This document shows, piece after piece, positions 36,165 to 53,207 of a stretch of DNA of 64,000 nt. Every line of letters starts with the position of its first letter. Position 1 is the stretch's first letter. Origin of the DNA: Candidatus Nomurabacteria bacterium RIFCSPHIGHO2_12_FULL_42_19 (lineage in GTDB: Bacteria > Patescibacteriota > Minisyncoccia > Phycocordibacterales > UBA9973); NCBI GenBank assembly GCA_001786955.1, contig MFUM01000008.1, positions 11,062 through 75,061 on the forward strand, in the 5' to 3' direction. Under the pieces are notes generated by a model. That model made no database searches and was not told the DNA's origin. It was given only the letters and a program-made list of their open reading frames with translations. The position numbers and the translations under genes were made by a program.

Positions 36165-36193
36165 TCTATTCTATAATTCTATAGAATATTAGA
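36165..36193. promoter_or_regulatory. Near-palindromic 29-bp element tctattctataattctatagaatattaga abutting the start codon of Cys-rich paralog 1
   Basis: Identical copy at 47813-47841; inverted copy at 39676-39708. Contains TATAAT/TAGAAT -10-like hexamers around the dyad core ttctatagaa. Confidence 0.5.
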
Positions 36194-37849
36194 ATGAAAA
36201 CAGAAGCAAAAATCTGTGTTGATTGTAAAAAAGAATTCGAAATAAATTCGGGTGATTTGAATTTATACGAAAAAGTCGATATTGAATTGCCGACACTCTG
36301 TTTTTTTTGCCGAATAAAACTGCATTTATCTTTCTGGATGTTTGGAAAATTTCGTAAAGGTAAATCAGACCTCTCGGGGAAAAGTCTGATTACGGTTTTA
36401 CCGGAGATAAACAGGTATCCTATTTATACGCTTCACGAATGGCATAGTGATAAATGGGATGCTATGAATTTCGGGATAGATTATGATTCAAGCAGACCTT
36501 TTTTTGAGCAATTAAAAGAATTACAGGAAAAAGTTCCTCATCCGCATCAAAATGGCATAAAAAATACCGGATGCGATTGGTGCGATGATGTTTGGAATTC
36601 TAAAAATTGCTACCTTTCTCGTTCAATGGAAGAATGTGAAGATTTATACTATTCATATCGAAATGTTAAGGTGAAGAATTCTATAGATATGACCATCTGC
36701 TTTAACACAGAAAAATCTTATGATTCCGGTGATTGTCATAATTCATTCAGACTCTTTTATTCCAAGCATTCTCGTGATTGCATAGATTCACTTTTTTTAT
36801 ATGATTGCCGAAATTGCCAGAATTGTTTTATGTGCTGGAATTTACGCAATAAGTCATATTACATAGAGAATATTCAATACACAAAAGAAGCATACGAAGA
36901 AAAATTAAAATCATTTCAACTCGGTTCATATAAATTTATTCAATCTCTTAAAAAAAATTTTGAAGAAATAATCAAGAAAGAAGCAATTCATAGGGGAAAC
37001 TTCAACTTAAGAACATATAATTCAGACGGAGACTACTTATTGGATGTTAAAAACTGCCATAACTGTAATACCATTAGTGATTCGGAAGATTGTTGTAATT
37101 GCATTCGCGGGTTACATCAAAAATCCGACATTGATTCCGATGGTTGCTGGTATTCCGAAATGATAGGAAATTGTAGTTGTTGTATAGGGGGATATGCTCT
37201 TAAGTATTCTACTTGGTCCTCTTCGCGATATTCAGAGTATTTGGATTTGTGTATTGAGTGTGAATATTGCTTCGGCTGTATTGGATTAAAGAAAAAAAAG
37301 TATTGCATTTTAAATAAGCAATATAATAAAGAAGAATATGAGATTTTGAAAAATAAAATTATTTCTGACATGAGAAAAAGAGGGGAATACGGTCAATTTC
37401 TGCCCTATTCTATGAGCGCTGGTCCCTTCAACTTTTCTACCAGTTTTTTATATTTTCCGGAAACCAAAAAGGAAGATATTTTTAAACTCGGCGGTTATTG
37501 GGAAGATATAAGCGAAAATCAAATTGAAGGTATGCCGACGAACGAACTGCCCGACGATATAAAAGATGTTCCGGACACCATAATAAAAGAGGCTCTGATA
37601 TGCCCCGAAACAGGTTGGCGTTTCAATATTGCCCAAAATGAGCTTTCTTTCTATAAGGAAAACAATATTCCACTTCCGCGATATCATTTTGATGTACGAA
37701 CCAAAAATGCCCTGAAATACCTGACTGTCCTGGAATCTTACCCTTACAAATGTTTTTACTGCAAAAAGGATATAATGGCCTATTATCCGCCGGAATGGGG
37801 CTACCAAAAAATAGCCTGCGAGGAATGTTATAAACAGAATATCGCATAA
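36194..37849 (+). CDS. Cys-rich paralog 1 (551 aa; most divergent; N-terminal CxxC-x17-CxxC zinc-ribbon-like motif, Cys-rich central modules)
   Basis: Shares 'CRNCQNCFMCWNLRNKSYYIENIQYTKEAY' and 'CFGCIGLKKKKYCILNKQYNKEEYE...GEYGQFLP' blocks with the other five paralogs. No signal peptide. Confidence 0.6.
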   Translation: MKTEAKICVDCKKEFEINSGDLNLYEKVDIELPTLCFFCRIKLHLSFWMFGKFRKGKSDLSGKSLITVLPEINRYPIYTLHEWHSDKWDAMNFGIDYDSSRPFFEQLKELQEKVPHPHQNGIKNTGCDWCDDVWNSKNCYLSRSMEECEDLYYSYRNVKVKNSIDMTICFNTEKSYDSGDCHNSFRLFYSKHSRDCIDSLFLYDCRNCQNCFMCWNLRNKSYYIENIQYTKEAYEEKLKSFQLGSYKFIQSLKKNFEEIIKKEAIHRGNFNLRTYNSDGDYLLDVKNCHNCNTISDSEDCCNCIRGLHQKSDIDSDGCWYSEMIGNCSCCIGGYALKYSTWSSSRYSEYLDLCIECEYCFGCIGLKKKKYCILNKQYNKEEYEILKNKIISDMRKRGEYGQFLPYSMSAGPFNFSTSFLYFPETKKEDIFKLGGYWEDISENQIEGMPTNELPDDIKDVPDTIIKEALICPETGWRFNIAQNELSFYKENNIPLPRYHFDVRTKNALKYLTVLESYPYKCFYCKKDIMAYYPPEWGYQKIACEECYKQNIA

Positions 37850-37963
37850 CAGATTTTCACGGTCGCGATAAAGTGTTATATTTAAAAATGAATCAAGAAA
37901 CTAAACAATGCCAAAACCCCGAACCAGAGCGAAGCTCGGTACGGGGCAGGTTGTAAAAAAGAT

Positions 37964-39667
37964 ATGGAGTATAAATCACAAAATGTGGTGTGTCAGAACT
38001 GTAAAGGTAATTTTATAATAGAGCCGGAGGATTTTTATTTCTATGAAAAAATAAAAGTCCCTCCGCCAACCTGGTGCCCGGAATGCCGGCAGCTTCGCCG
38101 CTATGCCTGGCGTAATGAACGCACCCTATACAGAAGGAACTGCGATTTATGCGGCAAGAACACGGTAACGATTTATTCTCCAAATAAGCCGCACAAGATG
38201 TATTGCCAGCCCTGTTGGTGGGGCGACGGCTGGGATCCGGCTTCCTATGGCCGTGATTTTGATTTTTCTCGGCCTTTTTTCGATCAATTTGCCGAATTGC
38301 AATTGGATGTGCCCCGCATGGCGCTCCTGAGTAAAAACAGCGTAAATTCAGAATACACCAACCATTCAGGGGACAATAAGAATGTTTACCTTTCTTTTGC
38401 AGCTTGGTCAGCCGAAGACGTTCTTTATAGCACCTGGGTTATGAAGTCCCGTGATTGTATGGACTGCAGTTTTGTTTACGATAAAGGCGAACGGCTGTAT
38501 GAAATAATCGATTCCCGAACCTCTTACGAGTGCCAGTACGGGCTATTTTTAAAAGATTGTTCCTCTTGTTACTATTGCTATGATTGCCGCGGGTGCAACC
38601 ATTGTTTTATGTCTTCTAACTTGCGCAATAAAAGTTATGTTTTTAAAAACAAACAATACACTCGGGAGGAATATTTAAAAAAAATAAAAGAATACGAATT
38701 ATCTTCTTTCTCAGCGCGAGAAAAACTGCAAAAAGAATTCCAGGACTTGATTGAAAAGGGTTCCATTCACCGCTACATAATCAGCGAACGTAATGTGAAT
38801 TCTGTCGGTTCTCTGATTTTTGACTGCAAAAATGTGACTCAATCTTTTGAAGTGAACAATGGGGAAGACAGCAAGTATATCTACGGCGCTCTGGATTTGA
38901 AAGATTGTATGGATATATATCATGTTGGATGGGCCACTACCGCGCTTGATTACGAATGCCATGGCTGCACTCGGATTTATGATTGTAAATTCTGCCATCT
39001 TTGTTATGACGACAACGGCGTGTCGTATTCCGACAGTTGCCAAAACAGCCAGAACCTTTTTGGTTGCGTGAGTATAAAAAAGGGCGAATATATGATTTTC
39101 AATAAAAAATACTCAAAAACCAATTATCTAGCGCTTAAGGAAAAAATAATAGAGCATATGAGAAAAATAGGAGAGTATGGGGGATTTTTCCCGCCGGCAA
39201 TTTCCCCAGTCGGCTACAACGAAACACAGGGGGCACTCTATGCTCCAATGACAAAAGAAGAAGTTTTGGCCAAGGGCTGGAAATGGGAGGAAAACATTCT
39301 GGGCACTTTCGGCAAAGAAACTATATTTCTCTCCGACATACCGGACAAAATTGAGGATGTTCCCGATAGTTTCTTGAAAGAAGTATTTTCCTGTATGGAA
39401 TGTTCCAAGAATTACAATATTACTCAAAATGAACTTCTTTTTTTGAAAAAAGAAAAAATTCCTTTACCCAGAAAGTGCCCGAATTGTCGTTACAAAAGAA
39501 GATTTAACCTCCGGCCTTTGCGAAAATTATGGCACCGGAGTTGTATGTGCGGTAAATCGGAGCACGGGCATTCGGCTAAATGCCCGAACGAATTTAAGAC
39601 CCCCTATGCCCCCGACCGGCCGGAAAAAGTGTATTGTGAGAGCTGCTACAACAAAGAAGTGTATTAA
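37964..39667 (+). CDS. Cys-rich paralog 2 (567 aa); double zinc-ribbon-like N-terminus and C-terminus
   Basis: N-term 'CQNCKGNFIIEPEDFYFYEKIKVPPPTWCPECR...CDLCGK...YCQPC'. C-term 'CMECSKNYNITQNELLFLKKEKIPLPRKCPNCR...CMCGKSEHGH..KCPNEFKTPYAPDRPEKVYCESCY'. Confidence 0.6.
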   Translation: MEYKSQNVVCQNCKGNFIIEPEDFYFYEKIKVPPPTWCPECRQLRRYAWRNERTLYRRNCDLCGKNTVTIYSPNKPHKMYCQPCWWGDGWDPASYGRDFDFSRPFFDQFAELQLDVPRMALLSKNSVNSEYTNHSGDNKNVYLSFAAWSAEDVLYSTWVMKSRDCMDCSFVYDKGERLYEIIDSRTSYECQYGLFLKDCSSCYYCYDCRGCNHCFMSSNLRNKSYVFKNKQYTREEYLKKIKEYELSSFSAREKLQKEFQDLIEKGSIHRYIISERNVNSVGSLIFDCKNVTQSFEVNNGEDSKYIYGALDLKDCMDIYHVGWATTALDYECHGCTRIYDCKFCHLCYDDNGVSYSDSCQNSQNLFGCVSIKKGEYMIFNKKYSKTNYLALKEKIIEHMRKIGEYGGFFPPAISPVGYNETQGALYAPMTKEEVLAKGWKWEENILGTFGKETIFLSDIPDKIEDVPDSFLKEVFSCMECSKNYNITQNELLFLKKEKIPLPRKCPNCRYKRRFNLRPLRKLWHRSCMCGKSEHGHSAKCPNEFKTPYAPDRPEKVYCESCYNKEVY

Positions 39668-39675
39668 ATATAAAG

Positions 39676-39708
39676 TATTCTAATATTCTATAGAATTATA
39701 GAATAGAT
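39676..39708. promoter_or_regulatory. Inverted copy of the near-palindromic element, upstream of Cys-rich paralog 3
   Basis: tattctaatattctatagaattatagaatagat is the reverse complement of the 36165-36193 element. Confidence 0.5.
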
Positions 39709-39712
39709 AATT

Positions 39713-41455
39713 ATGAAAAGCGAGACAAAAAACTGCCAAAATTGCAAAAAGGATTTCACGATAGAACCGGATGATTTTGGGTTTTATGAGAAAATAAAAG
39801 TTCCGCCGCCGACTTTTTGTCCGGAATGCCGGCTTATTCGTCGGCTTGTCTGGCGCAACGAGAGAATATTATATCGCCGGATTTGTAATCTTTGCAATAA
39901 GAATATCATTTCCATGTATCATGAATCTGTGCCTTTTCCTGTGTATTGTCGGGAGTGCTGGTATGGGGACGGCTGGGACCCCACCTCTTACGGACGGGAA
40001 TACGATATGGCAAGGCCGTTTTTTGAGCAATATAAAGAGTTTTCCAATACTGTCCCGAGGCTGATGTTTTGGCAAAGAAATGCGATTAACTCGGATTATT
40101 CAAATCATGTAGCAGAATCAAGGAATGCTTACATGTCTGCATCTGTGATAAAAGAGTCGGAGAATGTTTTTTATTCAAAAAATATAGATGATTCAAGGGA
40201 TATAGTAGACTGTTTAAATATAATAAACGGATCGGAGCAACTATATGAGACCGTAGAAGCGCAGGGGAATTACAACTCGCAATATCTTCTCCTTTGCCGG
40301 AACACCCTGGATTCGTATTATTCGTTTGATTGCATAAATTGCAGTAATTGTTTTCTTTCTTATAACCTGCGCAATAAAAAATTCTGTATTAGAAATAAAC
40401 AATATTCGCAAAAAGAATATTTTCAAGAACTGGAAAAATTTAACTTAAAAAGCAGAACTTCGCGCGAGGTTTTACTTAAAGAATTTGAAGAGGTTAAAAA
40501 ACAAGCCATCTTCCGCTTTGGCAATATAACCAAGTGTGTGAATGTTACGGGTAACAATATGCTGAATGTGAAAAACGGCAAAAATTGTTTTGAAATATAT
40601 AATATAGAAAATGCAAGTTATTGTTATAGAATTCTTGATTCTAAAGATTGTGTGGATACGAGTTTTAGTATGAAATCAGAGTTACTCTATGAATATAGCT
40701 CGGGTGGTATGAATGATTACAATGTAAAATTTTCCTATTCCGCCATGAATTTTGTCCGAAATGCGGATTATGCCGAGTCCTGTATGAATTGCAGCAATAT
40801 TTTCGGCTGTATCTCACTTCGCGATGCGGAAAATGCCATTTTAAACAAAGTTTATTCCAAAAAAGAATTTGAAACACTAAGGTCAGAAATCATCAAGCAA
40901 ATGAGCGCCTTGCCTTTCATAGATAAAGGCGGAAGAAAATACGAGTACGGGGAATTTTTTCCCATAGAAATCAGTCCATGGGCATATAATGAAACATCAG
41001 CACAAGAAATTGCTCCCCTAAGCAAAGAATCAGCCCAAAAAAGCGGCTATTCGTGGCGCGACGCAGATGAAAAAAATTTCAATATTACAATGTCGGGAAA
41101 TATGATACCGGACAATATAGACGAAGTAGGGGAGAGTATTCTGAAAGAAGTTTTGGGCTGCGCGCATGAAGGGAAATGCAACCATCAATGTAATATCGCT
41201 TTTCGTATAACCGATTACGAGTTTAAGTTTTACAAAAAACACGACATACCTTTGCCGATTTTTTGCCCGAATTGCCGTTATTATGAGAGATTTAAAGTGA
41301 TGCCAGGGCTAAAATTATATAAAAGAAATTGCATGTGCGACAAAGCCGGTCACGGGCACAATGAAAAATGCCCGAATGAATTTGAGACAAGTTATTCCCC
41401 CGACCGGCCGGAAAAAGTGTATTGCGAAAGTTGTTACAACAAAGAAGTTTACTGA
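39713..41455 (+). CDS. Cys-rich paralog 3 (580 aa)
   Basis: Same architecture as paralog 2; C-terminus '...FCPNCRYYERF...CMCDKAGHGHNEKCPNEFETSYSPDRPEKVYCESCYNKEVY' is nearly identical to the paralog 2 C-terminus. Confidence 0.6.
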   Translation: MKSETKNCQNCKKDFTIEPDDFGFYEKIKVPPPTFCPECRLIRRLVWRNERILYRRICNLCNKNIISMYHESVPFPVYCRECWYGDGWDPTSYGREYDMARPFFEQYKEFSNTVPRLMFWQRNAINSDYSNHVAESRNAYMSASVIKESENVFYSKNIDDSRDIVDCLNIINGSEQLYETVEAQGNYNSQYLLLCRNTLDSYYSFDCINCSNCFLSYNLRNKKFCIRNKQYSQKEYFQELEKFNLKSRTSREVLLKEFEEVKKQAIFRFGNITKCVNVTGNNMLNVKNGKNCFEIYNIENASYCYRILDSKDCVDTSFSMKSELLYEYSSGGMNDYNVKFSYSAMNFVRNADYAESCMNCSNIFGCISLRDAENAILNKVYSKKEFETLRSEIIKQMSALPFIDKGGRKYEYGEFFPIEISPWAYNETSAQEIAPLSKESAQKSGYSWRDADEKNFNITMSGNMIPDNIDEVGESILKEVLGCAHEGKCNHQCNIAFRITDYEFKFYKKHDIPLPIFCPNCRYYERFKVMPGLKLYKRNCMCDKAGHGHNEKCPNEFETSYSPDRPEKVYCESCYNKEVY

Positions 41456-41558: not shown

Positions 41559-42071
41559 TCAGGGTTTTTTCCCAAAAGCTTCAAATAAAATTTTCTTTGT
41601 TTCCTCGTCAATATTTTCGCTGACAATAATCATCATTTCGGTTGTCAGGCCCAAATCTTTTTTTATATTTGTAAATAAATGCTCAAAAGGGTAAGGAGAA
41701 ATCCAGGCGGAATTTTTCAGGCAGACGAAGCCGGCTTTTTTCAAAAGGTAGCGTAGGGATTCGCGTTCACTTTTTCTGCTCTCCGGCAAGTCGAGCAAAA
41801 TAATTCTCCAGAATCCGTCCCAACTTACCGGCACCGGCATCTCCTCATTCACCAACGTAATGCTGTGCAACTTCGCCTTACCTTTTTGGGTAATGCGTAA
41901 AAATGGCTGGTTGTCGGAGTTCTGTATCTCCGCATATCCGCCTTCTACCAGGTTTTTTACTGATCGGGTAAGGGCATAGGATGTTTTAAGCTCTGCAGTC
42001 GGTATAGCCGGTTTTTGGCCCAAAACCTCCAATATTTTCTTTGTATATCCTGATTTACTTGACATACCCAT
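41559..42071 (-). CDS. PaaX-family-like transcriptional regulator (N-terminal winged HTH, PaaX_C-like C-terminal domain)
   Basis: 'WDGFWRIILLDLPESRKSERESLRYLLKKAGFVCLKNSAWISPYP' matches the PaaX C-domain pattern as I recall it. Confidence 0.45.
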   Translation of the reverse strand: MGMSSKSGYTKKILEVLGQKPAIPTAELKTSYALTRSVKNLVEGGYAEIQNSDNQPFLRITQKGKAKLHSITLVNEEMPVPVSWDGFWRIILLDLPESRKSERESLRYLLKKAGFVCLKNSAWISPYPFEHLFTNIKKDLGLTTEMMIIVSENIDEETKKILFEAFGKKP

Positions 42072-42122
42072 ATATTATAATATATATTACCTTTTGACAA
42101 GCATTCCGCGACCACGAAATAC

Positions 42123-42151: not shown

Positions 42152-42274
42152 GAGTTTACAAAATTATTTATAAGCATTGCTCGAAGAAAATCAAACTTTC
42201 CTGCGTTAGGTCATAAGGATAATGCTCTTGGAAAGTTTATTTTCTTCTCGCAATAATTAATTATTAAAAAATAT

Positions 42275-44179
42275 ATGTCAAAAATAATAGGTATAGATTT
42301 GGGGACAACAAATTCGGCAGTTGCTGTGATTGAAGGAGGTGCGCCGAAAATTATTGAAAACGTTGAAGGCAACCGCACGACGCCTTCCGTTGTCGCGACC
42401 GCAAAAAATGGCGACCGCATCGTCGGTCTTCTTGCCAAGAGGCAGGCGGTGACAAATCCGGAAAACACGATAGCTGAAATCAAGCGTCTTATGGGGCACC
42501 GCTTTGATGACGTGGAAGTGCAGAAAGATAAGGAAACGGCCGCATTTAAAATTGAAGCGGGAGACGGCGGCGGAACGAAAGTAAAAATGTCGGACAAGTT
42601 CTACCGGCCAGAAGAAATCTCCGCGATGATTTTACAGAAAATAAAAACCGATGTTGAAGCAAAACTGGGAGAAAAAATTACCGAAGCGGTTATTACCGTG
42701 CCGGCCTATTTCAATGATGCGCAGAGAAAAGCGACCAAAGATGCCGGGGCCATCGCCGGACTGGATGTAAAACGCATCATCAACGAGCCGACGGCTGCCG
42801 CGTTGGCTTACGGATTTAATAAAAAGAAAAATGAAAAGATAGTCGTCTACGACTTCGGCGGAGGAACTTTTGATGTATCGGTGCTGGAAATCGGCGATGA
42901 TGTCATTGAAGTCAAGTCCACCGACGGCGACAGCCATATGGGCGGGGGCGACATAGACAGAAAGATAATAGCTTACATTGCCGAAGAATATAAAAAAGAT
43001 TCCGGTATTGATGTAATCAAAGACCCTCTGGCGCACCAGAGATTGAAGGAAGCGGCCGAAAAAGCCAAACACGAGCTTTCAACTACGATTGAAACCGAAA
43101 TCAACATACCCTTTATTACCTCAGATAGCTCCGGGCCAAAGCATTTATTGATGAAAATGACCCGCGCGACTTTGGAGTCTCTCGCCAAAGACTTGATTGA
43201 CCGTTCCATTGAAATTACCAAGAGAGCCTTGGCTGCTTCGCCGTTCAAGATGAATGAAATTAATGAAATTATTATGGTCGGCGGGCAGACCCGCATGCCG
43301 ATGATTGTGGAAGCCGTCAAGAATCTTTTCGGCAAAGACCCGAATATGTCCATCAATCCGGACGAAGTCGTCGCCTTGGGCGCCGCGGTCCAAGCCGGAG
43401 TGCTTCAGGGCGACGTGCGCGATGTTTTACTGCTTGATGTCATACCGCTTTCTTTGGGGATAGAGACATTGGGAGGCGTGGCCACAAAATTAATTGAAAG
43501 AAACACAACTATTCCTTCAAGCAAATCCCAGACATTCTCAACTGCCGCCGATAACCAAACTTCTGTGGAAATACACATTGTCCAGGGAGAGCGCCCGATG
43601 GCCTCCGACAACAAATCTCTCGGGCGATTTATCCTGGACGGAATTCCACCGGCGCCTCGGGGCATGCCGCAGATTGAAGTTGCTTTTGATGTGGATGCGA
43701 ATGGAATTCTGAATGTGGCGGCCAAAGATAAGGCTTCCGGCAAAAGCCAGTCCATTAGGATAGAAGCAAGCTCCGGACTGAAAGAAGAAGATATAAAGAA
43801 AATGCAGGCGGATGCGGAACTGCATGCCGAGGAAGACAAGAAGAAAAAAGAAAATGCCGAAGTGAAAAATACCGCGGAGATGATTATTTATACTGCCGAG
43901 AAAGCGCTAAAAGATAATGAAGAGAAAATTCCTGCAGATGTAAAAGATGGCGTAAATGCCAAGATAACCGCCTTGCGGGGAGTGAAAGATGGTGCCGACG
44001 GAGAGGCCATTAAAAAAGCCACCGAAGAGCTTTCCGCCGAAATGTCCAAAATTGGCGAAGCGATGGCCAAGGCCGGCGCAACTCCTCAATCTCCCAAAAC
44101 TCCCGAAGAGCAAAATCCCGAAGTTCACGATGCAGAATTCAAGGAGAAAAAAGAAGGGGAGGAAGGCGAAGTAAAATAA
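42275..44179 (+). CDS. dnaK: Chaperone DnaK (Hsp70)
   Basis: '[14 protein letters not shown]', '[10 protein letters not shown]', 'VGGQTRMP'; substrate-binding domain; C-terminal acidic tail. Confidence 0.95.
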
Positions 44180-47841: not shown

Positions 47842-49602
47842 ATGAAAACAGAAACAAGAAATTGTCAAAACTGTAAAAAGGACTTCACGATAGAACCCGA
47901 GGATTTTAATTTCTACGAGAAAATCAAAGTTCCTCCGCCGACCTTTTGTCATTTGTGTCGGGCACAGAGGAGATTGGCCTTTAGAAATGAGAGAAAACTT
48001 TTTAAAGTAAAAGATGCTTTTACTGGAGAAAGTATTTTTTCCACTTTTCCCACAGAAAGTGGCAGAAAGATAATTAAGAGAGAAATCTGGATGGGAGACA
48101 CTTGGGATGGCATGGAATACGGTCGGGAGTATGATTTTTCAAAACCTTTTCTACAGCAGTTGCGCGAACTTATCAACTCTTTGCCGATATACAATTTTAA
48201 CGTTATACGCATGGTAAATAGTCCATATTCTTTCAATGCTACGGACCTCAAAAATAGTTATCTTGTCTGCAACTCAAGTTATTCAGAGGATTGCATGTAC
48301 GGGAACGCCATTGATAATTGTAAAGATTGTGTAGATAACTCTCATATTCATGAGTCCGAGCGGTGTTATGAATCCTTTTGGCTCGCCAAATGTTATCAAT
48401 GCTATTTTACCCAGAGGGCAGAGGAGTCCAGAAATCTATGGTTTTGTCGTGGGTGTGTAGGCTGCCAAGATTGTTTCGGGTGTGCTAATTTAGTCAATGC
48501 TTCGTATTGCATTTTTAATAAAAAATATAACCCAGATGAATATCGTAATATTATAAAAGGAATGGAGTTAGATACATACGAAGGAATAATGGTGGCCAGA
48601 GAAAAGGCGCGCGTATTTTGGGATACCCAGCCCGTAAAAAGTATTCAAGGAATAAAGAATGTGAACTCTTCTGGTTCCTATATTACTCACTGCAGGAATG
48701 TTAAGGATAGTTATTTAGTTCGGGAGAGTGAAAACATCCGCTACTGCCAATATCTGCAAGTACCCTCCAGTAAAGAGAATTACGATGTGACAGTGTGGGG
48801 AAACAATACCGAGCTTTGTTACGAGACGGTAGAGTGCGGAGATGATTCGTATAATAATAAATTTACTTGGAATTGTTGGCCTGCTTGTAGAAATCTTGAA
48901 TACTCTACGCATCTTTTCAGTTCTTCGGATTGTTTTGGATGTTCAGGACTAAAGAAAAAACAATATTGCATTTTAAACAAGCAGTATACGAAAGAGGACT
49001 ATAAAGCAATGGTGGAGAAGATTAAAAAACACATGGATGAAATGCCTTATGTCGATGTTCGTGGCCTAATCTATAAATACGGAGAATTTTTACCAATAGA
49101 ATTTTGTCCTTTCGGTTATAACAATACTTTAGCAGGCCAGCATTTTACCTTATCTAAAGAAGAAGCGCTAAAGAATAATTATGGATGGGTTGACGGAGAA
49201 CGAGGAGAATACACTATTACTAAAAAATCTTCGGAACTCCCGGAGTCTATTACCAGCACTTCAGATGATATTTTGAAAGAAGTTTTCGAATGTCAATCAT
49301 GCAAAAATGCTTACCGCGTTCTCGAAAATGAATTGATTTTTTTGCGCAAGGAAAATTTGTCGGCTCCACGTCTCTGTAGTGAATGTAGGCATGAGCGTAG
49401 AATCAACGACAGGCTGAAATTATTTTTATACGAAAGATCCTGTATGTGCGCTGGTATTACCGACCAGACCAATACATATAAAAATACCATTTCTCATAAT
49501 CACAAAGATTTTCCGTGTGGAGAGGTATTCAAAACCGGCTATGCTCCAGACCGCCCGGAAATTGTTTACTGCGAGAAATGTTACCAACAAGAAGTGTATT
49601 GA
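47842..49602 (+). CDS. Cys-rich paralog 4 (586 aa)
   Basis: N-term 'CQNCKKDFTIEPEDFNFYEKIKVPPPTFCHLCR'; central 'CVGCQDCFGCANLVNASYCIFNKKYNPDEY' and 'CFGCSGLKKKQYCILNKQYTKEDY...YKYGEFLP'; C-term '...PDRPEIVYCEKCYQQEVY'. Confidence 0.6.
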   Translation: MKTETRNCQNCKKDFTIEPEDFNFYEKIKVPPPTFCHLCRAQRRLAFRNERKLFKVKDAFTGESIFSTFPTESGRKIIKREIWMGDTWDGMEYGREYDFSKPFLQQLRELINSLPIYNFNVIRMVNSPYSFNATDLKNSYLVCNSSYSEDCMYGNAIDNCKDCVDNSHIHESERCYESFWLAKCYQCYFTQRAEESRNLWFCRGCVGCQDCFGCANLVNASYCIFNKKYNPDEYRNIIKGMELDTYEGIMVAREKARVFWDTQPVKSIQGIKNVNSSGSYITHCRNVKDSYLVRESENIRYCQYLQVPSSKENYDVTVWGNNTELCYETVECGDDSYNNKFTWNCWPACRNLEYSTHLFSSSDCFGCSGLKKKQYCILNKQYTKEDYKAMVEKIKKHMDEMPYVDVRGLIYKYGEFLPIEFCPFGYNNTLAGQHFTLSKEEALKNNYGWVDGERGEYTITKKSSELPESITSTSDDILKEVFECQSCKNAYRVLENELIFLRKENLSAPRLCSECRHERRINDRLKLFLYERSCMCAGITDQTNTYKNTISHNHKDFPCGEVFKTGYAPDRPEIVYCEKCYQQEVY

Positions 49603-49639
49603 AAACTAAGATTTCTGCTATCGCAGAGTTTTAAGTAAA

Positions 49640-51391
49640 ATGAATACAAAAACAGAAACTAGAATATGCCAGAACTGTAAAAAGGACTTCACGATAGAAC
49701 CGGAGGATTTTAATTTTTATGAGAAAATGGCGGTGCCAGCTCCGACTTGGTGTCCTGATTGTCGTTTGCAGAGGCGCCTCACTTTTCGCAACGAAAGAAC
49801 TTTTTACAAACGCCCATGCGATCTATGTGGTGTAAGCACTATTTCAAGATATGATCCCTCTAAGGGAGAGTTAAGTTATTGTGGGGAATGCTGGTGGAGT
49901 GACAAATGGAATCCCGCAAGCTACGGACAGGGCTATGATTTTTCGAGACCATTTTTTGAGCAATTTTCGGAGCTTATGAAAAAAGTTCCGCATCAAAATC
50001 TATCTGTAAGCTATAAGACACTCACTAACAGTGATTTTACAAACATGAATCATTACTTGAAAAATTGTTATTATATATTTAACTCCGACTACGATGAGAG
50101 ATGTTTGTACGGAGAGGAGATAGAACACAGTGCCGATTGTATGGATATGACGATGGCCGAAAACACCCAACTTGCCTATGAGAGCGTAAATTGCAATAAA
50201 TGCTATCAAATTTATTATTCCGTAGATTGCGAAAGTTCCCATGATATTTGGTTTTCTAAGAATTTAGTTGGCTGTTCGAATTGCTTCAGTTGTATTAATT
50301 TGCGTGGTCAACAATATTGCATTTTCAACGAAAAATATAGCCGAGAAGATTATCTAAAAAAACTACAGAAGTTTAATCTAGGTTCTTATGCTGGCACTCA
50401 AGGAATTAAAAAAGAAGCTGCAGGATTCTGGCTCAAATTCCCAAATAAATACATGCATGGAATTCAGAATTTGGATTCCACCGGTGACTATATCTATAAT
50501 TCCAAATATGTAAAAAAATCATTCGTTATTGCAGGAGGAGAATATTGCAAATATTGTTTCCTGCTGATTGGTAAAAATAATAAAGAATGTTATGACTTCA
50601 CGCAGTTTGGCGAGAACACGGAAAAAGTATACGAATCATTAGTTTCTGGGAATGGCATCAGTAATGTTATTGGGGGCATCGTGACTCTCGAAGGAAGAAA
50701 TATAAGATATTCTGTGGATTGCCGTGATAGCAATAGATTTGGTTGTGTAGGGATACGTGATAAAAAACATTATATTTTCAACAAAGAATATACAAAGGAG
50801 GAATATGAAAATTTAGTGCCGAAAATAGTTGAACACATGAATAGCATGCCTTATATTGACAAGAAGGGCTGCCAATATGTTTACGGCGATTTCTTCCCGA
50901 CAGAAATTTCTCCCTATAGTTATAATGAAACCACTGCTCAGGAATTTTTTCCATTAACTAAGCAAGAAGCCGGAGAACAAGGATATTCATGGAAAGAACC
51001 GAAGGAAAGAAATTATAAAATAACTATAGAATCGGAAAATTTACCCGATAATATTAAGGATATTCCAGACGATATGGTATCCGCGGTAATCGGTTGTGAG
51101 CATGGAGGTAAATGCAAAGAACAATGCACTATCGCTTTTAAAATCATAGAACCTGAATTGCAATTTTATAAATCACAAAATTTGCCACTTCCGCATTTGT
51201 GTCCTAATTGCAGACATTACCAAAGAGTTTTAAACAGAAACCCAAATAAATTTTGGCATAGACAATGCATGTGCGACAAAAAGCATGTTCATCACGAAGG
51301 GCAATGTGAAGTCGAATTTGAGACTTCATACGCCCCCGAGCGACCAGAAATTGTATATTGCGAAAAATGTTACCAGCAAGAGGTGTATTAA
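49640..51391 (+). CDS. Cys-rich paralog 5 (583 aa)
   Basis: Same architecture; N-term 'CQNCKKDFTIEPEDFNFYEKMAVPAPTWCPDCRLQRR'; C-term 'CPNCRHYQRV...CMCDKKHVHHEGQCEVEFETSYAPERPEIVYCEKCYQQEVY'. Confidence 0.6.
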   Translation: MNTKTETRICQNCKKDFTIEPEDFNFYEKMAVPAPTWCPDCRLQRRLTFRNERTFYKRPCDLCGVSTISRYDPSKGELSYCGECWWSDKWNPASYGQGYDFSRPFFEQFSELMKKVPHQNLSVSYKTLTNSDFTNMNHYLKNCYYIFNSDYDERCLYGEEIEHSADCMDMTMAENTQLAYESVNCNKCYQIYYSVDCESSHDIWFSKNLVGCSNCFSCINLRGQQYCIFNEKYSREDYLKKLQKFNLGSYAGTQGIKKEAAGFWLKFPNKYMHGIQNLDSTGDYIYNSKYVKKSFVIAGGEYCKYCFLLIGKNNKECYDFTQFGENTEKVYESLVSGNGISNVIGGIVTLEGRNIRYSVDCRDSNRFGCVGIRDKKHYIFNKEYTKEEYENLVPKIVEHMNSMPYIDKKGCQYVYGDFFPTEISPYSYNETTAQEFFPLTKQEAGEQGYSWKEPKERNYKITIESENLPDNIKDIPDDMVSAVIGCEHGGKCKEQCTIAFKIIEPELQFYKSQNLPLPHLCPNCRHYQRVLNRNPNKFWHRQCMCDKKHVHHEGQCEVEFETSYAPERPEIVYCEKCYQQEVY

Positions 51392-51434
51392 TATCTTATT
51401 CTAGTGTTTTGCAAAAGACTGAAATAATAAAAAC

Positions 51435-53207
51435 ATGAAAAGCGAAACTAAAAATTGTCAAAATTGCAAAAAAGATTTCATGATAGAATCGGAGGATTTT
51501 AATTTTTATGAGAAAATTAAAGTTCCTCCGCCGACTTTTTGCCCTGAATGTAGGCTAATTCGCAGAATGACTTGGCGCAACGAGCGATCACTTTTTAAAA
51601 GAGTTTGCGCAAAAACGGGAGAACAAATAATAACCATGTTTCATCCCGAAATTAATATGGTGGTGTATGACCACGACGTGTGGTGGAGCGATAAATGGGA
51701 GCCGACGGATTACGGAAAAGATTACGATTTTTCTCGACCTTTTTTTGAACAGTTTAGGGAACTATTCCAAAAAGTACCGCTTGCAAATTTAGGGAATTCA
51801 AACTGTAAAGGAAGTCCGTACGGTAATCACAATGCGGATTGCAAATATTGCTATTTGACATACGCTTCTTTTAATAATGAACGAACACATTATTCTTATG
51901 GAGTAGTTGAAACGAAAGATTGTGTAGATATGTATAAATGCGGTAAATCTGAATTAAGTTACAACGACACCCTTTGTGCCGGCTTATATAAAACCCATTT
52001 TTCTTACGATTCCGATGAGTCGATAAATTCTTTTTTCTTAAAGTATTGCAAAAATCTGCAGGATTGCATTGGCTGTGTTAATTTAAGGAACAAGAGTCAT
52101 TGCATTTTAAATGTGCAATATACGAAGGAAGAATATAAAAAGAAAAAAAAAGAATTGGACTTCGGCAGCTATCGAATTCTCTCTGAATTTAAAGATTCTT
52201 ACGACAAATTTGTTCTTAATTTTCCAAACAGATACGCAAGTATTATAAAATCCACCGAAGCAACTGGCGACGAAATTATGAATTCCAAAAATATAAAAAA
52301 TTCTTTTGATATTTTTGGAGAGGCTGAAGATTCAAAATATTTATTTCACTGCGTAAGTATTAAAGACAGTTATGACATGTATGGCGCCGGATTGGCGTCT
52401 CTTATGTATGAGGGGATAGATGCTGGCATAGACGCGTCAAAAGAACTGTTCTGCGCGATTGCCCATAGTTGTTTGGATATTTATTATTCTTATATGTGTT
52501 TTAGCTCAAAAAATCTTTTTGGCTGTATTGGGTTGCGAGGTAAGCAATATTGTATTTTAAATAAGCAATATTCCAAAGAGGAATACTTTAATTTATTACC
52601 TAAAATTATTGAACACATGAACACCATGCCTTTTAAAGATAAAAAAGGTCTAATTTACAAATATGGAGAATTTTTTCCATCCGAATTGTCGCCTTTTGCT
52701 TATAATGAAACGATGGCTCAGGAGTATTTTACTAAAACAAAAGAAGAAATAATTCAAAAGGGGCATGTTTACCGAACACCAACTGAAAAAGATTATCAAG
52801 TTACCATATTGAGTAAAGATTTGCCGGATCACATCAGAGATGTTCCTGAAACCATACTTGAGGAAATTATCGCTTGTCCTAACAATGGACAAGAATCAAC
52901 TCAATGCACTAAGGCTTATCGCATCACTAAACCGGAATTAGATTTTTTAAAAAATAATAATATTACACTACCAAGATATTGTCCGAATTGTAGACACTAC
53001 GGAAGGCTGAAGCAAAGAAATCCGTTTCATCTTTGGCGAGGCAAATGCCAGTGTGCTGGAGATTATTCCAAAAACAAAAAATATAAAAACACAATGGAGC
53101 ATATCCACGGAAACAAACCATGTCTGAATGAGTTTGAAACCCCATACGCTCCCGAGCGGTCGGAAATAATTTACTGCGAAAAGTGTTATCAGCAGGAAGT
53201 ATATTAG
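51435..53207 (+). CDS. Cys-rich paralog 6 (590 aa)
   Basis: Same architecture; N-term 'CQNCKKDFMIESEDFNFYEKIKVPPPTFCPECRLIRR'; C-term '...ETPYAPERSEIIYCEKCYQQEVY'. Confidence 0.6.
   Translation: MKSETKNCQNCKKDFMIESEDFNFYEKIKVPPPTFCPECRLIRRMTWRNERSLFKRVCAKTGEQIITMFHPEINMVVYDHDVWWSDKWEPTDYGKDYDFSRPFFEQFRELFQKVPLANLGNSNCKGSPYGNHNADCKYCYLTYASFNNERTHYSYGVVETKDCVDMYKCGKSELSYNDTLCAGLYKTHFSYDSDESINSFFLKYCKNLQDCIGCVNLRNKSHCILNVQYTKEEYKKKKKELDFGSYRILSEFKDSYDKFVLNFPNRYASIIKSTEATGDEIMNSKNIKNSFDIFGEAEDSKYLFHCVSIKDSYDMYGAGLASLMYEGIDAGIDASKELFCAIAHSCLDIYYSYMCFSSKNLFGCIGLRGKQYCILNKQYSKEEYFNLLPKIIEHMNTMPFKDKKGLIYKYGEFFPSELSPFAYNETMAQEYFTKTKEEIIQKGHVYRTPTEKDYQVTILSKDLPDHIRDVPETILEEIIACPNNGQESTQCTKAYRITKPELDFLKNNNITLPRYCPNCRHYGRLKQRNPFHLWRGKCQCAGDYSKNKKYKNTMEHIHGNKPCLNEFETPYAPERSEIIYCEKCYQQEVY

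What the first reader, a model, noticed from the sequence alone, without database searches (positions are those of the whole stretch)
36165..53207. Six diversified Cys-rich paralogs (two tandem triplets) inserted into the grpE-dnaK-dnaJ locus
In most bacteria grpE, dnaK and dnaJ are contiguous. Here ~6 kb separates grpE from dnaK and ~11 kb separates dnaK from dnaJ.
- **Contents of the insertions.** Both carry a triplet of ~551-590-aa paralogous proteins (36194-41455 and 47842-53207), with no signal peptide or TM helix.
- **Termini.** The N-terminus has two CxxC-x17-CxxC zinc-ribbon-like units. The first follows a pattern 'C-Q-N-C-K-K-D-F-x-I-E-P-E-D-F-x-F-Y-E-K-I-K-V-P-P-P-T-x-C-P-x-C-R', reminiscent of 'probable zinc-ribbon' domains of small bacterial proteins. 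The C-terminus carries a similar pair of ribbons ending in '...CPNEFET(S/P)Y(S/A)P(D/E)RPE(K/I)VYCE(S/K)CY(N/Q)(K/Q)EVY'.
- **Central modules.** The centre holds two internally duplicated Cys-rich modules, each ending in a '...C.NCF.C.NLRNK.Y.I.NKQY(S/T)KEEY' block.
- **Divergence.** The paralogs share roughly 40-50% identity by eye, suggesting an old, diversifying family rather than a recent duplication.
- **Status.** I cannot place the family in any characterised protein family. The position inside a core chaperone operon, the duplicated triplet organisation and the associated VirD4-like ATPases make it the strongest candidate for an undescribed system. One hypothesis: cytoplasmic zinc-binding nucleic-acid or protein ligands, possibly substrates of a T4SS-like export or uptake machinery.
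Basis: partly seen in the sequence, partly recalled or inferred. Interest (0 to 1): 0.85.

Follow-up and report, generated by a model that had tools for sequence, protein, structure and literature searches.

The report
Uncharacterised zinc-finger double-solenoid protein family
Six old, diverged copies of an unstudied cysteine-rich cytoplasmic protein sit inside the heat-shock chaperone gene cluster of an ultra-small groundwater bacterium, and across this bacterial group the family stays next to two orphan "secretion-coupling-like" motor ATPases, which points to an undescribed cellular machine whose function is not yet known.

Summary
Six paralogous ORFs of 551-590 aa (27-45% identical) interrupt grpE-dnaK-dnaJ in a Candidatus Nomurabacteria genome.

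- **Architecture.** Each protein reads [zf_Tbcl-like Zn module A + CxxC-x17-CxxC module B], beta-rich module S, helical linker, S', a conserved middle domain X, then [A'+B']. Profile comparison confirms all three internal duplications.
- **Known relatives.** Only the Zn modules match known models. The S-S core has no Pfam, NCBIfam, PADLOC or PDB relative, even with a pLDDT 92 model.
- **Size and spread.** The family has at least 1,353 clusters at 50% identity. It is CPR-restricted, forms arrays of up to 12 tandem copies, and is absent from viral contigs.
- **Age of the cluster.** The insertion is ancient. Orthologues keep their positions in other genera and evolve about as slowly as GrpE or DnaJ. 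grpE often overlaps the first copy, and ATPase A is often 0-6 nt from the next.
- **Split forms.** In deeper lineages a small A-B protein and a ~300-aa S-S protein are separate, overlapping genes, again beside a VirD4-like ATPase.

My best reading is that these are accessory or adaptor subunits of Patescibacteria's orphan VirD4-like ATPases. This rests on gene context only. I found no support for T4SS-exported effectors. Function remains untested.

The parts
35556..36164 (+). grpE; first gene of the inferred operon grpE-FAM1-FAM2-FAM3
   Evidence: Pfam GrpE E 4e-36. A terminator-like hairpin lies upstream at 35372-35389, with none between grpE and FAM1-3. In 8 of 11 related loci the grpE stop overlaps the start of the next family gene by 20-26 nt.
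36194..37849 (+). FAM1, 551 aa. The most divergent paralog: Zn sites 2 and 3 are degenerate and the protein is acidic.
   Evidence: Orthologues at 59-79% identity sit directly after grpE in L001, L005, L006, L007, L034 and L035.
37964..39667 (+). FAM2, 567 aa, with all four Zn sites
   Evidence: Weak zf_Tbcl (7-46) and zf_Tbcl_2 (53-85) hits. Orthologues at 65-81% identity. The public gene call uses a start 7 codons downstream.
39713..41455 (+). FAM3, 580 aa (OGI80912.1), the reference copy for modelling
   Evidence: AF2 models reach pLDDT 81 and 92. Homologues were found, and the public record.
39734..39958 (+). FAM3 N-terminal zinc modules: A (C8, C11, C36, C39; CxxC-x24-CxxC) and B (C58, C61, C79, C82; CxxC-x17-CxxC)
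   Evidence: Cys conservation is 93-97% for A and about 59% for B over 147 members. hhalign links A to A' and B to B'. The stand-alone A-B protein of L117 aligns here with E 5e-15.
40073..40408 (+). FAM3 beta-rich module S (aa 121-232), ending in the cap motif C.NC.NCF.C.NLRNK.Y.I.NKQYS.EEY
   Evidence: 12-residue hydrophobic period with Cys at i+3 spacing. Short regular strands appear in the model. hhalign S versus S' gives E 1.6e-37.
40517..40858 (+). FAM3 second beta-rich module S' (aa 269-382) with the cap FGC.GL..K.YCILNKQYSKEEY
   Evidence: The body is variable and the cap conserved.
40910..41152 (+). FAM3 conserved middle domain X (aa 400-480; YGEFFP...SPFAYNET...W)
   Evidence: Conservation. 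pLDDT above 90. No family match.
41159..41434 (+). FAM3 C-terminal zinc modules: A' (C483, C493, C518, C521) and B' (C540, C553, C571, C574)
   Evidence: Cys conservation 83-99%. hhalign. Weak TIGR04272 hit in the equivalent C-terminal module of FAM2 (FAM2 aa 538-564).
41559..42071 (-). PaaX_M-domain small regulator-like protein, divergent from dnaK
   Evidence: Pfam PaaX_M E 5e-20. It holds the same position in 15 related loci.
42275..44179 (+). dnaK; first gene of the inferred operon dnaK-peptidase-HAD-ATPaseA-FAM4-FAM5-FAM6
   Evidence: Pfam HSP70 E 2e-245. The strongest promoter-like sites lie at 42054-42151.
45708..47810 (+). ATPase A: a soluble T4CP/VirD4-like P-loop ATPase with a C-terminal CxxC-x17-CxxC finger (aa 451-482) and a low-complexity tail
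   Evidence: Pfam TrwB_AAD_bind E 5e-11, T4SS-DNA_transf, TraG-D_C and zf_Tbcl_2 E 4e-11. TIGR04272 E 7e-12. No TM helix. Followed directly by a family gene in 11 of 17 loci.
47842..49602 (+). FAM4, 586 aa, lacking Zn site 2
   Evidence: Orthologues at 62-70% identity after ATPase A in L021, L035 and L039.
49640..51391 (+). FAM5, 583 aa, with all four Zn sites
51435..53207 (+). FAM6, 590 aa, lacking Zn site 2
53246..53983 (-). rsmE (16S rRNA methyltransferase), probably a remnant of the ancestral dnaJ-prmA-rsmE neighbourhood
   Evidence: Pfam Methyltrans_RNA E 2e-41. Same position in L005, L032, L036, L039, L087, L091 and L101. The Bacillus operon order is from my own knowledge.
54005..55534 (+). 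ATPase B: a soluble T4CP-like ATPase, paralogous to A (43% identity), without a zinc finger, directly upstream of dnaJ
   Evidence: It is very conserved, at 83-93% identity over the best 120 clusters. No finger in 46 of 46 B-type ORFs.
55612..56715 (+). dnaJ
   Evidence: Pfam DnaJ, DnaJ_CXXCXGXG and DnaJ_C

Best explanation
The six genes belong to a large protein family specific to the Candidate Phyla Radiation.

**What is shown**
- The invariant core is a double beta-rich, solenoid-like module (S-S, about 300 aa).
- In Paceibacteria the core is fused at both ends to a pair of structural zinc modules: A (zf_Tbcl type, followed by an Arg-rich helix) and B (CxxC-x17-CxxC).
- The family, its architecture, its internal duplications and its cytoplasmic character are established here.
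- So are the ancient positional orthology and the tight operonic coupling to grpE, dnaK, dnaJ and to two soluble VirD4/T4CP-like ATPases.

**What is inferred from gene context only**
- The proteins are non-enzymatic accessory or adaptor subunits of these orphan T4CP-like hexameric ATPases.
- The conserved zinc modules and solenoid caps would form a constant docking frame.
- The fast-evolving solenoid faces and linker helices of the different paralogs would give each copy its own binding specificity, for nucleic acid or for a protein client.
- In Paceibacteria the whole module is expressed from the heat-shock chaperone operons. The proteins could therefore act together with DnaK-GrpE-DnaJ, or depend on them.
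For: 1. **Real and large family.** More than 5,500 hits in the 90% clusters. At 50% identity there are 3,565 representatives, 1,353 of them at E<=1e-30, and nearly all are full length.
2. **No enzyme-like signature.** The nearly invariant residues are Zn ligands or structural positions duplicated in both repeats: N228/N378, D166/D315, and the FGC/NLRNK caps.
3. **Constant and variable parts.** Zn modules and caps are conserved (1.6-2.0 bits entropy). Solenoid bodies and the linker are variable (2.5-2.8 bits).
4. **Orthologues hold position and evolve slowly.** FAM1 orthologues are 59-79% identical, against GrpE 65-84%, DnaJ 63-75% and RsmE about 60%.
5. **Operonic coupling.** The grpE stop overlaps the family start by 20-26 nt in 8 of 11 loci. 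The ATPase A stop is 0-6 nt from a family start in 7 loci. In family-anchored loci, grpE is followed by a family gene in 10 of 12 cases and ATPase A in 11 of 17.
6. **Survey anchored on the ATPase instead of the family.** About 20 of 29 informative B-type loci carry a family member.
7. **Fission forms.** In deeper lineages a 95-150 aa A-B protein and a ~300 aa S-S protein are separate genes, overlapping in L170, L171 and L114. They lie beside a T4CP-like ATPase in L114, L117, L121, L170 and L171.
8. **Shared finger.** ATPase A carries the same B-type finger.
9. **Zinc binding.** CxxC-x17-CxxC domains bind zinc experimentally (PMC12704099).
10. **Orphan ATPases in the literature.** About two VirD4 homologues per patescibacterial genome are known, almost never near virB4, and the authors suggest they may have been exapted (PMC12102498).
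Against: - There is no experimental or structural evidence for any contact between the family and the ATPases or DnaK.
- Many family members lie away from ATPases: 53 of 79 family-anchored loci show none within 10 kb. Examples include the frr-rseP locus.
- ATPase A-like genes in most other CPR lineages have no family member nearby. Their zinc finger is also present there, so the ATPase does not need the family.
- Conserved synteny in small, slowly rearranging genomes can persist without a functional link.
- The variety of other neighbours leaves the client undefined. These include DNA-repair genes in L171 and L172, and thioredoxin and glutaredoxin in L168.
Confidence: 0.4

Rival explanations
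1. The proteins are lineage-specific cofactors or holdases of the DnaK-GrpE-DnaJ system. For example, they could be zinc- or thiol-based stress sensors that hold clients and pass them to DnaK (working like Hsp33). Alternatively they could be assembly factors embedded in the chaperone operon, like Thermus DafA.
For: - They are embedded in the grpE/dnaK/dnaJ operons across Paceibacteria, with overlapping stop and start codons.
- Adjacency survives rearrangements: dnaK followed by family genes in L055, dnaJ followed by a family gene in 4 of 8 loci, and a family gene upstream of grpE in L063.
- A minimal S-S gene lies 2 kb downstream of dnaK in a distant lineage that has hrcA-grpE (L169).
- Each protein has 30-36 Cys and 2-4 Zn sites.
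- One Peregrinibacteria copy is flanked by thioredoxin and glutaredoxin.
Against: - No Hsp33 or DnaJ-finger similarity was found.
- Chaperone linkage is absent from most deep-lineage loci, whereas ATPase linkage persists there.
- The redox-gene adjacency occurs in one locus only.
- ClpB and the full DnaK system are present anyway.
- This idea does not explain why a holdase would need 6 to 12 or more old paralogs.
Confidence: 0.15
2. The paralogs are substrates or effectors that the VirD4-like coupling ATPases recruit for export through the patescibacterial T4SS, possibly into a host cell.
For: - Conserved adjacency to T4CP homologues.
- In some deep lineages the neighbouring ATPase has an N-terminal TM segment plus DUF8128, like a membrane-anchored coupling protein.
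- Multi-copy diversified families are typical of symbiont effectors (general knowledge).
- The extreme C-terminus is highly conserved.
Against: - The window ATPases and 82 of 96 surveyed ATPases are soluble.
- No virB4, virB6 or other T4SS genes appear in the window or in the surveyed neighbourhoods.
- Only 148 of 5,713 patescibacterial T4CP genes lie near virB4, and the T4CP was non-essential where the T4SS is essential (PMC12102498).
- Orthologues evolve at housekeeping rates and sit in core operons.
- Compact multi-zinc proteins are poor candidates for unfolding-dependent export (inference).
Confidence: 0.12
3. The family is a structural or buffering component with no functional tie to its neighbours. 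It could be a polymer-forming beta-solenoid scaffold (bactofilin-like in principle) or a cytoplasmic zinc/thiol buffer. The synteny would then only reflect co-expression with highly expressed core genes.
For: - The fold class is beta-rich and solenoid-like.
- Gene dosage is high, with up to 12 tandem copies.
- Many copies lie in unrelated housekeeping loci near mreB, ftsW or ribosomal genes.
- Cys content is 5-6%.
Against: - The recurrent ATPase adjacency in both fused and split forms, across deep lineages, is hard to explain by inertia alone.
- The paralogs are old and individually conserved, which suggests distinct roles rather than bulk dosage.
- Solenoid Cys are interchangeable with Ser, Leu and Val, so they are not a dedicated metal store.
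Confidence: 0.15
4. The paralog arrays plus HerA/T4CP-like ATPases form an anti-phage or conflict system.
For: - The ATPases give weak PADLOC matches to mad8 and HerA models (E 1e-14 to 1e-7).
- Tandem diversified paralogs are common in conflict systems (general knowledge).
Against: - No PADLOC hit for the family at E below 1e-3; the single weak CARF-model match for FAM3 (E 0.008, no significant stretch) is treated as noise.
- ATPase B is 83-93% identical across more than 120 clusters and fixed next to dnaJ.
- The position is in the core genome, without mobile-element or island features.
- The family is absent from viral contigs.
Confidence: 0.04

Closest known systems
Type IV coupling proteins with dedicated accessory or adaptor proteins (F-plasmid TraD-TraM; Legionella DotL with DotM, DotN and IcmS/W; DotN is a zinc-binding subunit)
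   Same: A VirD4/TraD-family hexameric ATPase (TrwB_AAD_bind, T4SS-DNA_transf and TraG-D_C hits) is encoded next to small or medium non-enzymatic partner proteins, some of which bind zinc. Operon-level coupling is also shared.
   Different: - The ATPases here lack the membrane anchor and are not linked to any T4SS channel genes.
- The partner family has no sequence or fold similarity to TraM, DotM/N or IcmS/W.
- Partners occur as many old paralogs.
- The whole set is wired into the chaperone operon.
- The TraM and DotN comparison is from my own knowledge and was not tested.
zf_Tbcl (PF13451) and zf_Tbcl_2 (PF23477) / TIGR04272 CxxC-x17-CxxC small zinc proteins
   Same: - The terminal modules A and B carry the same Cys spacing and signature residues: F.I...D..FY.K..VP.P..CP.CR, and RP..VYC..C.
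- Stand-alone A-B proteins of the split forms score above Pfam cut-offs.
- Methanosarcina mazei members bind zinc (PMC12704099).
   Different: - In the window proteins the matches are below the curated cut-offs.
- The modules make up only about a third of the protein, and the S-S-X core is not covered by any model.
- No function is known for these zinc domains either.
Tight-coil beta-solenoids (insect antifreeze proteins such as spruce budworm AFP 1m8n; curli CsgA; left-handed beta-helix acyltransferases and gamma-carbonic anhydrases)
   Same: - Short strands have a ~12-residue period, with small or Cys residues at i+3 positions pointing into a narrow core.
   Different: - There is no sequence relation.
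- These proteins are cytoplasmic, not secreted.
- Cys are not paired.
- No catalytic His or metal motif of the LbH enzymes is present.
Lineage-specific factors embedded in dnaK operons (Thermus thermophilus DafA; Bacillus hrcA-grpE-dnaK-dnaJ-prmA-rsmE)
   Same: Extra genes are co-transcribed with grpE, dnaK and dnaJ. rsmE remains in the neighbourhood, as in Firmicutes.
   Different: DafA is an 8 kDa protein with no similarity. Here the inserted genes are 550-600 aa zinc/solenoid proteins plus two ATPases. The comparison rests on my own knowledge of those operons.

Membership tests
zf_Tbcl (PF13451, probable treble-clef zinc domain) | Profile match at or above the gathering score (24 bits) | tested here: inconclusive
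   - Window paralogs score 10-19 bits, below the cut-off.
- 32 of 84 family members hit at E<=0.1, best 2.5e-6.
- Stand-alone A-B proteins of the split forms score 30-32 bits, above the cut-off, and align to both ends of FAM3.
zf_Tbcl (PF13451) | Two CxxC knuckles as zinc ligands | tested here: met
   C8, C11, C36 and C39 are conserved at 93-97%. C483, C493, C518 and C521 are conserved at 83-99% over 147 members. Metal binding itself was not tested.
CxxC-x17-CxxC domain (TIGR04272 / PF23477 zf_Tbcl_2) | CxxC-x17-CxxC spacing and a profile match above the cut-off | tested here: inconclusive
   - The spacing is exact at aa 58-82 in FAM2, FAM3 and FAM5. The site is absent in FAM1, FAM4 and FAM6.
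- Pfam gives 21 bits against a cut-off of 27. TIGR04272 gives 17 against 36.
- ATPase A passes both: 43 bits and 44.9 bits.
Type IV coupling protein (VirD4/TraD/TrwB), for the neighbouring ATPases | P-loop motor with T4CP-specific domains (TrwB_AAD_bind, T4SS-DNA_transf, TraG-D_C) | tested here: met
   - ATPase A scores 42.6, 30.6 and 25.2 bits, all above the cut-offs.
- ATPase B passes on TraG-D_C (26.8 against 22) and is borderline on TrwB_AAD_bind (20.2 against 20.5).
- NCBIfam equivalog scores are far below the cut-offs, so the proteins are not orthologues of any named TraD or VirD4.
Type IV coupling protein (VirD4/TraD/TrwB) | N-terminal transmembrane anchor | tested here: not met
   No hydrophobic segment is present: maximum KD(19) is 1.13 for A and 1.06 for B, and Walker A sits at about residue 45-75. 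82 of 96 surveyed homologues are equally short and soluble.
Type IV coupling protein (VirD4/TraD/TrwB) | Genomic or functional association with a T4SS channel (virB4, virB6) or a relaxase | tested here: not met
   None is present in the window or among recurrent neighbours in 31 distant loci. The literature reports 148 of 5,713 near virB4. The rest of the genome could not be inspected.
Beta-solenoid proteins (antifreeze or LbH type) | Significant structural superposition on a solved solenoid | tested here: inconclusive
   [not shown]
Disulfide- or metal-laddered Cys solenoid (Tenebrio-AFP-like) or Fe-S ferredoxin-like CxxCxxC motifs | Ligand or disulfide cysteines conserved together | tested here: not met
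   - Cys occupancy at solenoid positions is 30-90%, and pairwise phi is below 0.35 for all pairs but one.
- Cys is replaced by Ser, Leu, Val, Ile or Ala.
- No Fer4 Pfam hit was found.
- The last coil (C207, C210, C213, C216) is all-Cys in only 72 of 147 members.
Hsp33 or DnaJ-type zinc chaperone domains | Profile match to HSP33 or DnaJ_CXXCXGXG | tested here: not met
   No such hit in any of 84 members at E<=0.1. dnaJ of the window does match.
Known anti-phage defence proteins (PADLOC) | Profile match | tested here: not met
   No significant hit for the three paralogs tested; one noise-level CARF-model match for FAM3 (E 0.008, no significant stretch). The ATPases give only weak, generic HerA and mad8 matches.

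The most novel reading that the evidence does not exclude
The A-B zinc module, the S-S double solenoid and the paired orphan T4CP-like ATPases form a previously unrecognised cytoplasmic ATP-driven machine specific to Patescibacteria. In Paceibacteria this machine is wired to the DnaK system. Interchangeable solenoid paralogs would act as specificity subunits that deliver different nucleic-acid or protein clients to the motor. If so, this would explain what the ~2 'exapted' VirD4 homologues per patescibacterial genome are for.
Probability: 0.3. Interest if true: 0.85.

Novelty: categorically new. Interest (0 to 1): 0.68.

Why it matters
Patescibacteria (CPR) make up a large share of bacterial diversity. 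They have tiny genomes, yet many of them spend several per cent of their coding capacity on this family: six genes here, and up to 12 in tandem elsewhere.

A recent survey (PMC12102498) noted that thousands of VirD4-like ATPases in these organisms are not linked to any secretion system and might have been exapted, but it named no partner. This family is a concrete, conserved genomic partner for them. Its split and fused forms point to which pieces should interact, which makes the question testable with recombinant proteins.

The S-S core also appears to have no relative among solved structures. The placement inside grpE-dnaK-dnaJ suggests that the proteostasis network of these organisms has lineage-specific components.

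Full report
**1. What is in the window**

The region 35.5-56.7 kb carries these genes, all on the + strand unless marked:

| Gene | Coordinates | Note |
|---|---|---|
| grpE | 35556-36164 | |
| FAM1 | 36194-37849 | 551 aa |
| FAM2 | 37964-39667 | 567 aa |
| FAM3 | 39713-41455 | 580 aa |
| PaaX_M-domain gene | 41559-42071 | minus strand |
| dnaK | 42275-44179 | |
| trypsin-like peptidase | 44179-44976 | |
| HAD hydrolase | 44992-45666 | |
| ATPase A | 45708-47810 | |
| FAM4 | 47842-49602 | 586 aa |
| FAM5 | 49640-51391 | 583 aa |
| FAM6 | 51435-53207 | 590 aa |
| rsmE | 53246-53983 | minus strand |
| ATPase B | 54005-55534 | |
| dnaJ | 55612-56715 | |

- The six FAM proteins are homologous over their full length: BLASTP E 1e-66 to 1e-179, 27-45% identity, 30-36 Cys each.
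- The window holds no further copy.
- None of them has a hydrophobic segment compatible with a signal peptide or TM helix.
- The window comes from Candidatus Nomurabacteria bacterium RIFCSPHIGHO2_02_FULL_41_52. FAM3 is OGI80912.1, annotated 'hypothetical protein' and, in UniRef, 'Zinc-binding domain-containing protein'.
- The rest of the window is ordinary core genome: ClpB, BipA, AlaRS, MnmA, ribosomal proteins and rpoA.

**2. Anatomy of the protein**

Alignments of 41, 84 and 143 members were used, along with two AlphaFold2 models of FAM3. With the deeper alignment the second reached pLDDT 91.8 and pTM 0.92. Together they give this layout, in FAM3 numbering:

- **Module A (aa 4-47).** CxxC-x24-CxxC, followed by the conserved Arg-rich helix CR..RR...RNER.LY.R.
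- **Module B (aa 54-84).** CxxC-x17-CxxC.
- **Aromatic linker L.** WWSD.WD...YG.DYDFSRPFFEQF.
- **Beta-rich module S (aa 121-232).**
- **Two helices (aa 233-264).**
- **Second beta-rich module S' (aa 269-382).**
- **A long helix and a conserved domain X (aa 400-480).** X carries YGEFFP..SPFAYNET.
- **Modules A' (aa 483-527) and B' (aa 536-575).**

Profile-profile comparison confirms that each pair is an internal duplication:

| Pair | Probability | E-value | Aligned columns |
|---|---|---|---|
| S / S' | 99.95% | 1.6e-37 | 126 |
| A / A' | 99.3% | 7e-21 | 38 |
| B / B' | 97.9% | 4e-13 | 36 |

Over 147 diverse members, Zn-ligand conservation is as follows:

| Site | Cys conservation |
|---|---|
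| A | 93-97% |
| B | about 59% |
| A' | 83-99% |
| B' | 97-99% |

In the window, FAM1, FAM4 and FAM6 lack site B, and FAM1 also lacks A'.

**3. The central modules**

- S and S' show a ~12-residue hydrophobic period, with Cys recurring at i+3 spacing. The model shows short regular strands.
- I therefore call the modules 'beta-rich, solenoid-like' with no significant solved neighbour.
- The solenoid cysteines are not obligate ligands or disulfide partners. Their occupancy is 30-90%, their presence is uncorrelated between positions (phi below 0.35), and they are exchanged with Ser, Leu, Val, Ile and Ala.
- Conservation is highest in the Zn modules and the two 'caps' (..C.NCF.C.NLRNK.Y.I.NKQYSKEEY and ..FGC.GL..K.YCILNKQYSKEEY). 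It is lowest in the solenoid bodies and the linker helices.
- The nearly invariant polar residues are duplicated structural positions rather than an active site.

**4. Known families**

- Only the zinc modules are recognisable. zf_Tbcl (PF13451) matches 32 of 84 members and zf_Tbcl_2 (PF23477) matches 22 of 84, mostly below the gathering scores. TIGR04272 matches weakly.
- Nothing matches the central ~350 residues in Pfam, NCBIfam, PADLOC or PDB sequence profiles.
- CxxC-x17-CxxC small proteins of Methanosarcina mazei were shown by ICP-MS to bind zinc (PMC12704099).
- Five literature searches found no description of the family.

**5. Size and distribution**

- The exhaustive search of 50% representatives gives 3,565 hits, 1,353 of them at E<=1e-30, and almost all are 550-600 aa.
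- Named sources are Nomurabacteria, Paceibacterota/Minisyncoccia, and Giovannoni-, Jorgensen-, Lipton-, Sung- and Staskawiczbacteria.
- A search started from a minimal form also reaches Candidatus Peregrinibacteria.
- No relative occurs in IMG/VR viral contigs.
- In 79 genome loci anchored on the family I count 201 copies. Fifty loci hold two or more copies, and tandem arrays reach 10 and 12.

**6. The cluster is ancient and positionally conserved**

The order grpE, FAM(1-4), PaaX-like (minus strand), dnaK, ATPase A, FAM(0-3), rsmE (minus strand), ATPase B, dnaJ recurs in L001, L005, L006, L007, L021, L029, L032, L035, L039, L058, L088 and L101, among others.

Each window paralog has clear orthologues at the same position in other genomes:

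| Paralog | Orthologue identity | Position |
|---|---|---|
| FAM1 | 59-79% | directly after grpE |
| FAM2 | 65-81% | |
| FAM3 | 62-66% | |
| FAM4 | 62-70% | after ATPase A |

- In those same loci GrpE is 65-84% identical, DnaJ 63-75% and RsmE about 60%.
- The paralogs are therefore under ordinary purifying selection, but individual orthogroups come and go.
- The closest relatives of FAM3 (70-77% identity) sit in a different conserved locus, mreB-holB-frr-rseP-FAM-(ddl or mraY). The family is thus partly scattered.

**7. Operon coupling**

- In the window the gaps are 29 nt from grpE to FAM1 and 31 nt from ATPase A to FAM4. The scan shows no strong terminator-like hairpin in the gaps between the genes within each run; one weak 6-bp candidate (49613-49628) lies in the FAM4-FAM5 gap. 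It finds a terminator-like hairpin before grpE and the best promoter-like sites before dnaK.
- In relatives the grpE stop overlaps the start of the next family gene by 20-26 nt in 8 of 11 loci, whichever orthogroup follows. The ATPase A stop is 0-6 nt from a family start in 7 loci.
- The adjacency survives rearrangements: dnaK followed by three family genes in L055, dnaJ followed by a family gene in 4 of 8 loci, and a family gene upstream of an uninterrupted grpE-dnaK-dnaJ in L063.

**8. The ATPases**

- A and B are paralogs (43% identity). Both have T4CP/VirD4 signatures: TrwB_AAD_bind, T4SS-DNA_transf, TraG-D_C and DUF87.
- Both lack a membrane anchor, and no T4SS genes are nearby.
- ATPase B is extraordinarily conserved, at 83-93% identity over the best 120 clusters.
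- ATPase A carries a canonical CxxC-x17-CxxC finger, the same type as module B. It is present in 48 of 75 complete A-type ORFs, including 27 loci without family genes. B-type ORFs never have it.
- A published survey found 5,713 VirD4 homologues in 2,918 patescibacterial genomes, with only 148 near virB4. It raised the possibility of exaptation (PMC12102498).
- In a metagenome survey anchored on the ATPase rather than the family, about 20 of 29 informative B-type loci carry a family member. Distant A-like ATPases of other lineages mostly do not, and their recurrent neighbours are housekeeping genes: a sigma70_r4/HARE-HTH protein, SecF, Pgk, RecJ and RNase H.

**9. Split and intermediate forms**

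In deeper lineages the family is encoded in pieces. A 95-150 aa A-B protein scores above the cut-offs for zf_Tbcl, and in L117 also for zf_Tbcl_2. It aligns to both ends of FAM3 with E 5e-15 and 2e-12. One or more ~300 aa S-S proteins lie beside it, and in L170, L171 and L114 the two reading frames overlap (L117, L121, L114, L170, L171).

Five of the nine deep-lineage loci examined have a T4CP-like ATPase next door:

| Locus | Arrangement |
|---|---|
| L170, L117 | dprA-x-topA-[A-B][S-S]-sigma70_r4/HARE-HTH-ATPase; here the ATPase has an N-terminal TM segment (seen in the L117 translation) and a DUF8128 domain (Pfam hit on record for the L170 and L171 ATPases) |
| L171 | [A-B][S-S] convergent with the ATPase |
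| L121 | ATPase B followed by S-S, A-B, S-S, S-S |
| L114 | S-S and A-B genes on the opposite strand, running towards the 3' end of ATPase B |

Among 120 relatives of the minimal form, the architectures are as follows:

| Architecture | Count |
|---|---|
| S-S | 87 |
| S-S-A-B | 7 |
| A-B-L-S-S-X | 6 |
| (B-)L-S-S-X-A-B | 12 |
| full A-B-L-S-S-X-A-B | 4 |
| other variants (L-S-S, S-S-X-A-B, A-B-L-S-S, S-S-X-A) | 4 |

The S-S core is therefore the invariant element, and the zinc modules are accessory partners that work with it. Other deep-lineage contexts are mixed:

- lexA-dinB-x-x-[S-S-A-B], with mutS and mutL downstream (L172).
- hrcA-grpE...dnaK...[S-S] (L169).
- Thioredoxin, RNase H, the family gene, then glutaredoxin (L168). 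This redox neighbourhood occurs only once.

**10. Interpretation**

*Shown:*
- A real, very large, CPR-specific cytoplasmic protein family with a defined modular architecture.
- An ancient and conserved genomic coupling to orphan T4CP-like ATPases.
- In Paceibacteria, a coupling to the DnaK-GrpE-DnaJ operons as well.

*Inferred:*
- The family has no catalytic signature. It has a conserved frame with variable faces, and old paralogs that are individually conserved. It also shows fission and fusion with a zinc module that the ATPase carries too.
- The most economical reading is a set of adaptor or accessory subunits for the ATPase motors, each with its own binding specificity (confidence 0.4).
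- The client is unknown. The recurring DNA-metabolism neighbours, the DNA-dependent nature of this ATPase family (established knowledge) and the Arg-rich helices favour nucleic acid. The chaperone operon favours proteins.

*Rivals:*
- A DnaK co-factor or holdase (0.15).
- A structural or buffering protein unrelated to its neighbours (0.15).
- A defence system (0.04).

**11. Novelty and score**

No description of the family or of its association was found. Its core has no relative in the curated profile libraries or the PDB. I rate it as lying outside known kinds of system, with the clear caveat that function is untested. Interest is 0.68. The family gives a concrete, testable partner for the unexplained VirD4 homologues of Patescibacteria, and it points to lineage-specific components around the DnaK system.

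Noticed in passing
window 41559-42071 (- strand) and the intergenic region 42072-42274: A 170-aa protein with a PaaX_M (Cas2-like) domain is transcribed divergently from dnaK. It holds this position in 15 related loci, where other bacteria have hrcA. The intergenic region holds the strongest promoter-like sites of the region (TTGACA-18-TATATT at 42059-42088). It may be the heat-shock regulator of Paceibacteria.
   Followed up: partly
window 44179-45666: A trypsin-like peptidase, whose start overlaps the dnaK stop, and a HAD hydrolase lie between dnaK and ATPase A. The tblastn survey found a homologue of neither gene in this position in any related locus (the only HAD-like hit is in L118, on the opposite strand); several of those loci leave only about 100 nt between dnaK and ATPase A. 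The peptidase gives weak PADLOC matches (PDC-S45 and LmuA-like, E 1e-10).
   Followed up: partly
window 47040-47810 (ATPase A aa 445-700): After the motor domain, ATPase A has a CxxC-x17-CxxC finger. It is followed by a low-complexity tail of about 220 aa, rich in K, E and P, which is absent from ATPase B.
   Followed up: partly
window 21190-22218: A Sigma70_r4 + HARE-HTH protein (342 aa) lies here. Its homologue (30% identity, E 6e-52) lies directly upstream of the T4CP-like ATPase in L117 and L170. It is the most frequent neighbour of the ATPase in 19 of 31 distant loci. In this window it sits about 24 kb away from ATPase A.
   Followed up: partly
L117 8867-12361; L170 9035-12070; L171 7878-10064: In some non-Paceibacteria lineages the T4CP-like ATPase has an N-terminal extension of about 400 aa. 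It includes a TM helix and the Pfam domain DUF8128. The Paceibacteria enzymes have lost this extension.
   Followed up: partly
window 35505-35540: A perfect 16-nt inverted repeat (ATAAAAAAATCCCTCT/AGAGGGATTTTTTTAT, 4-nt loop) lies just upstream of grpE. It could be a terminator or an operator. A separate GC-rich terminator-like hairpin sits at 35372-35389.
   Followed up: no
window 22346-23695 and 29752-30993: Two sizeable ORFs (449 aa and 413 aa) have no Pfam match. The second follows an FtsA-like gene, and the pair is conserved in L001 and L083.
   Followed up: no
L036 (JAMPXW010000002.1, labelled Burkholderiales) and many 'uncultured Candidatus Saccharibacteria' TPA_asm records: These contigs carry typical Paceibacteria synteny: ATPase A, family genes, rsmE, ATPase B, dnaJ. 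Their taxonomic labels are probably wrong or generic.
   Followed up: no
window 37964 versus 37985: Public gene calls start FAM2 seven codons downstream of the longest ORF, giving 560 aa instead of 567 aa. The N-terminal alignment with the other paralogs does not decide between the two starts.
   Followed up: no
window 10920-11538: A cluster of four tRNA genes (Leu, Lys, Leu, Cys) on the - strand coincides with the local GC maximum (0.50).
   Followed up: no
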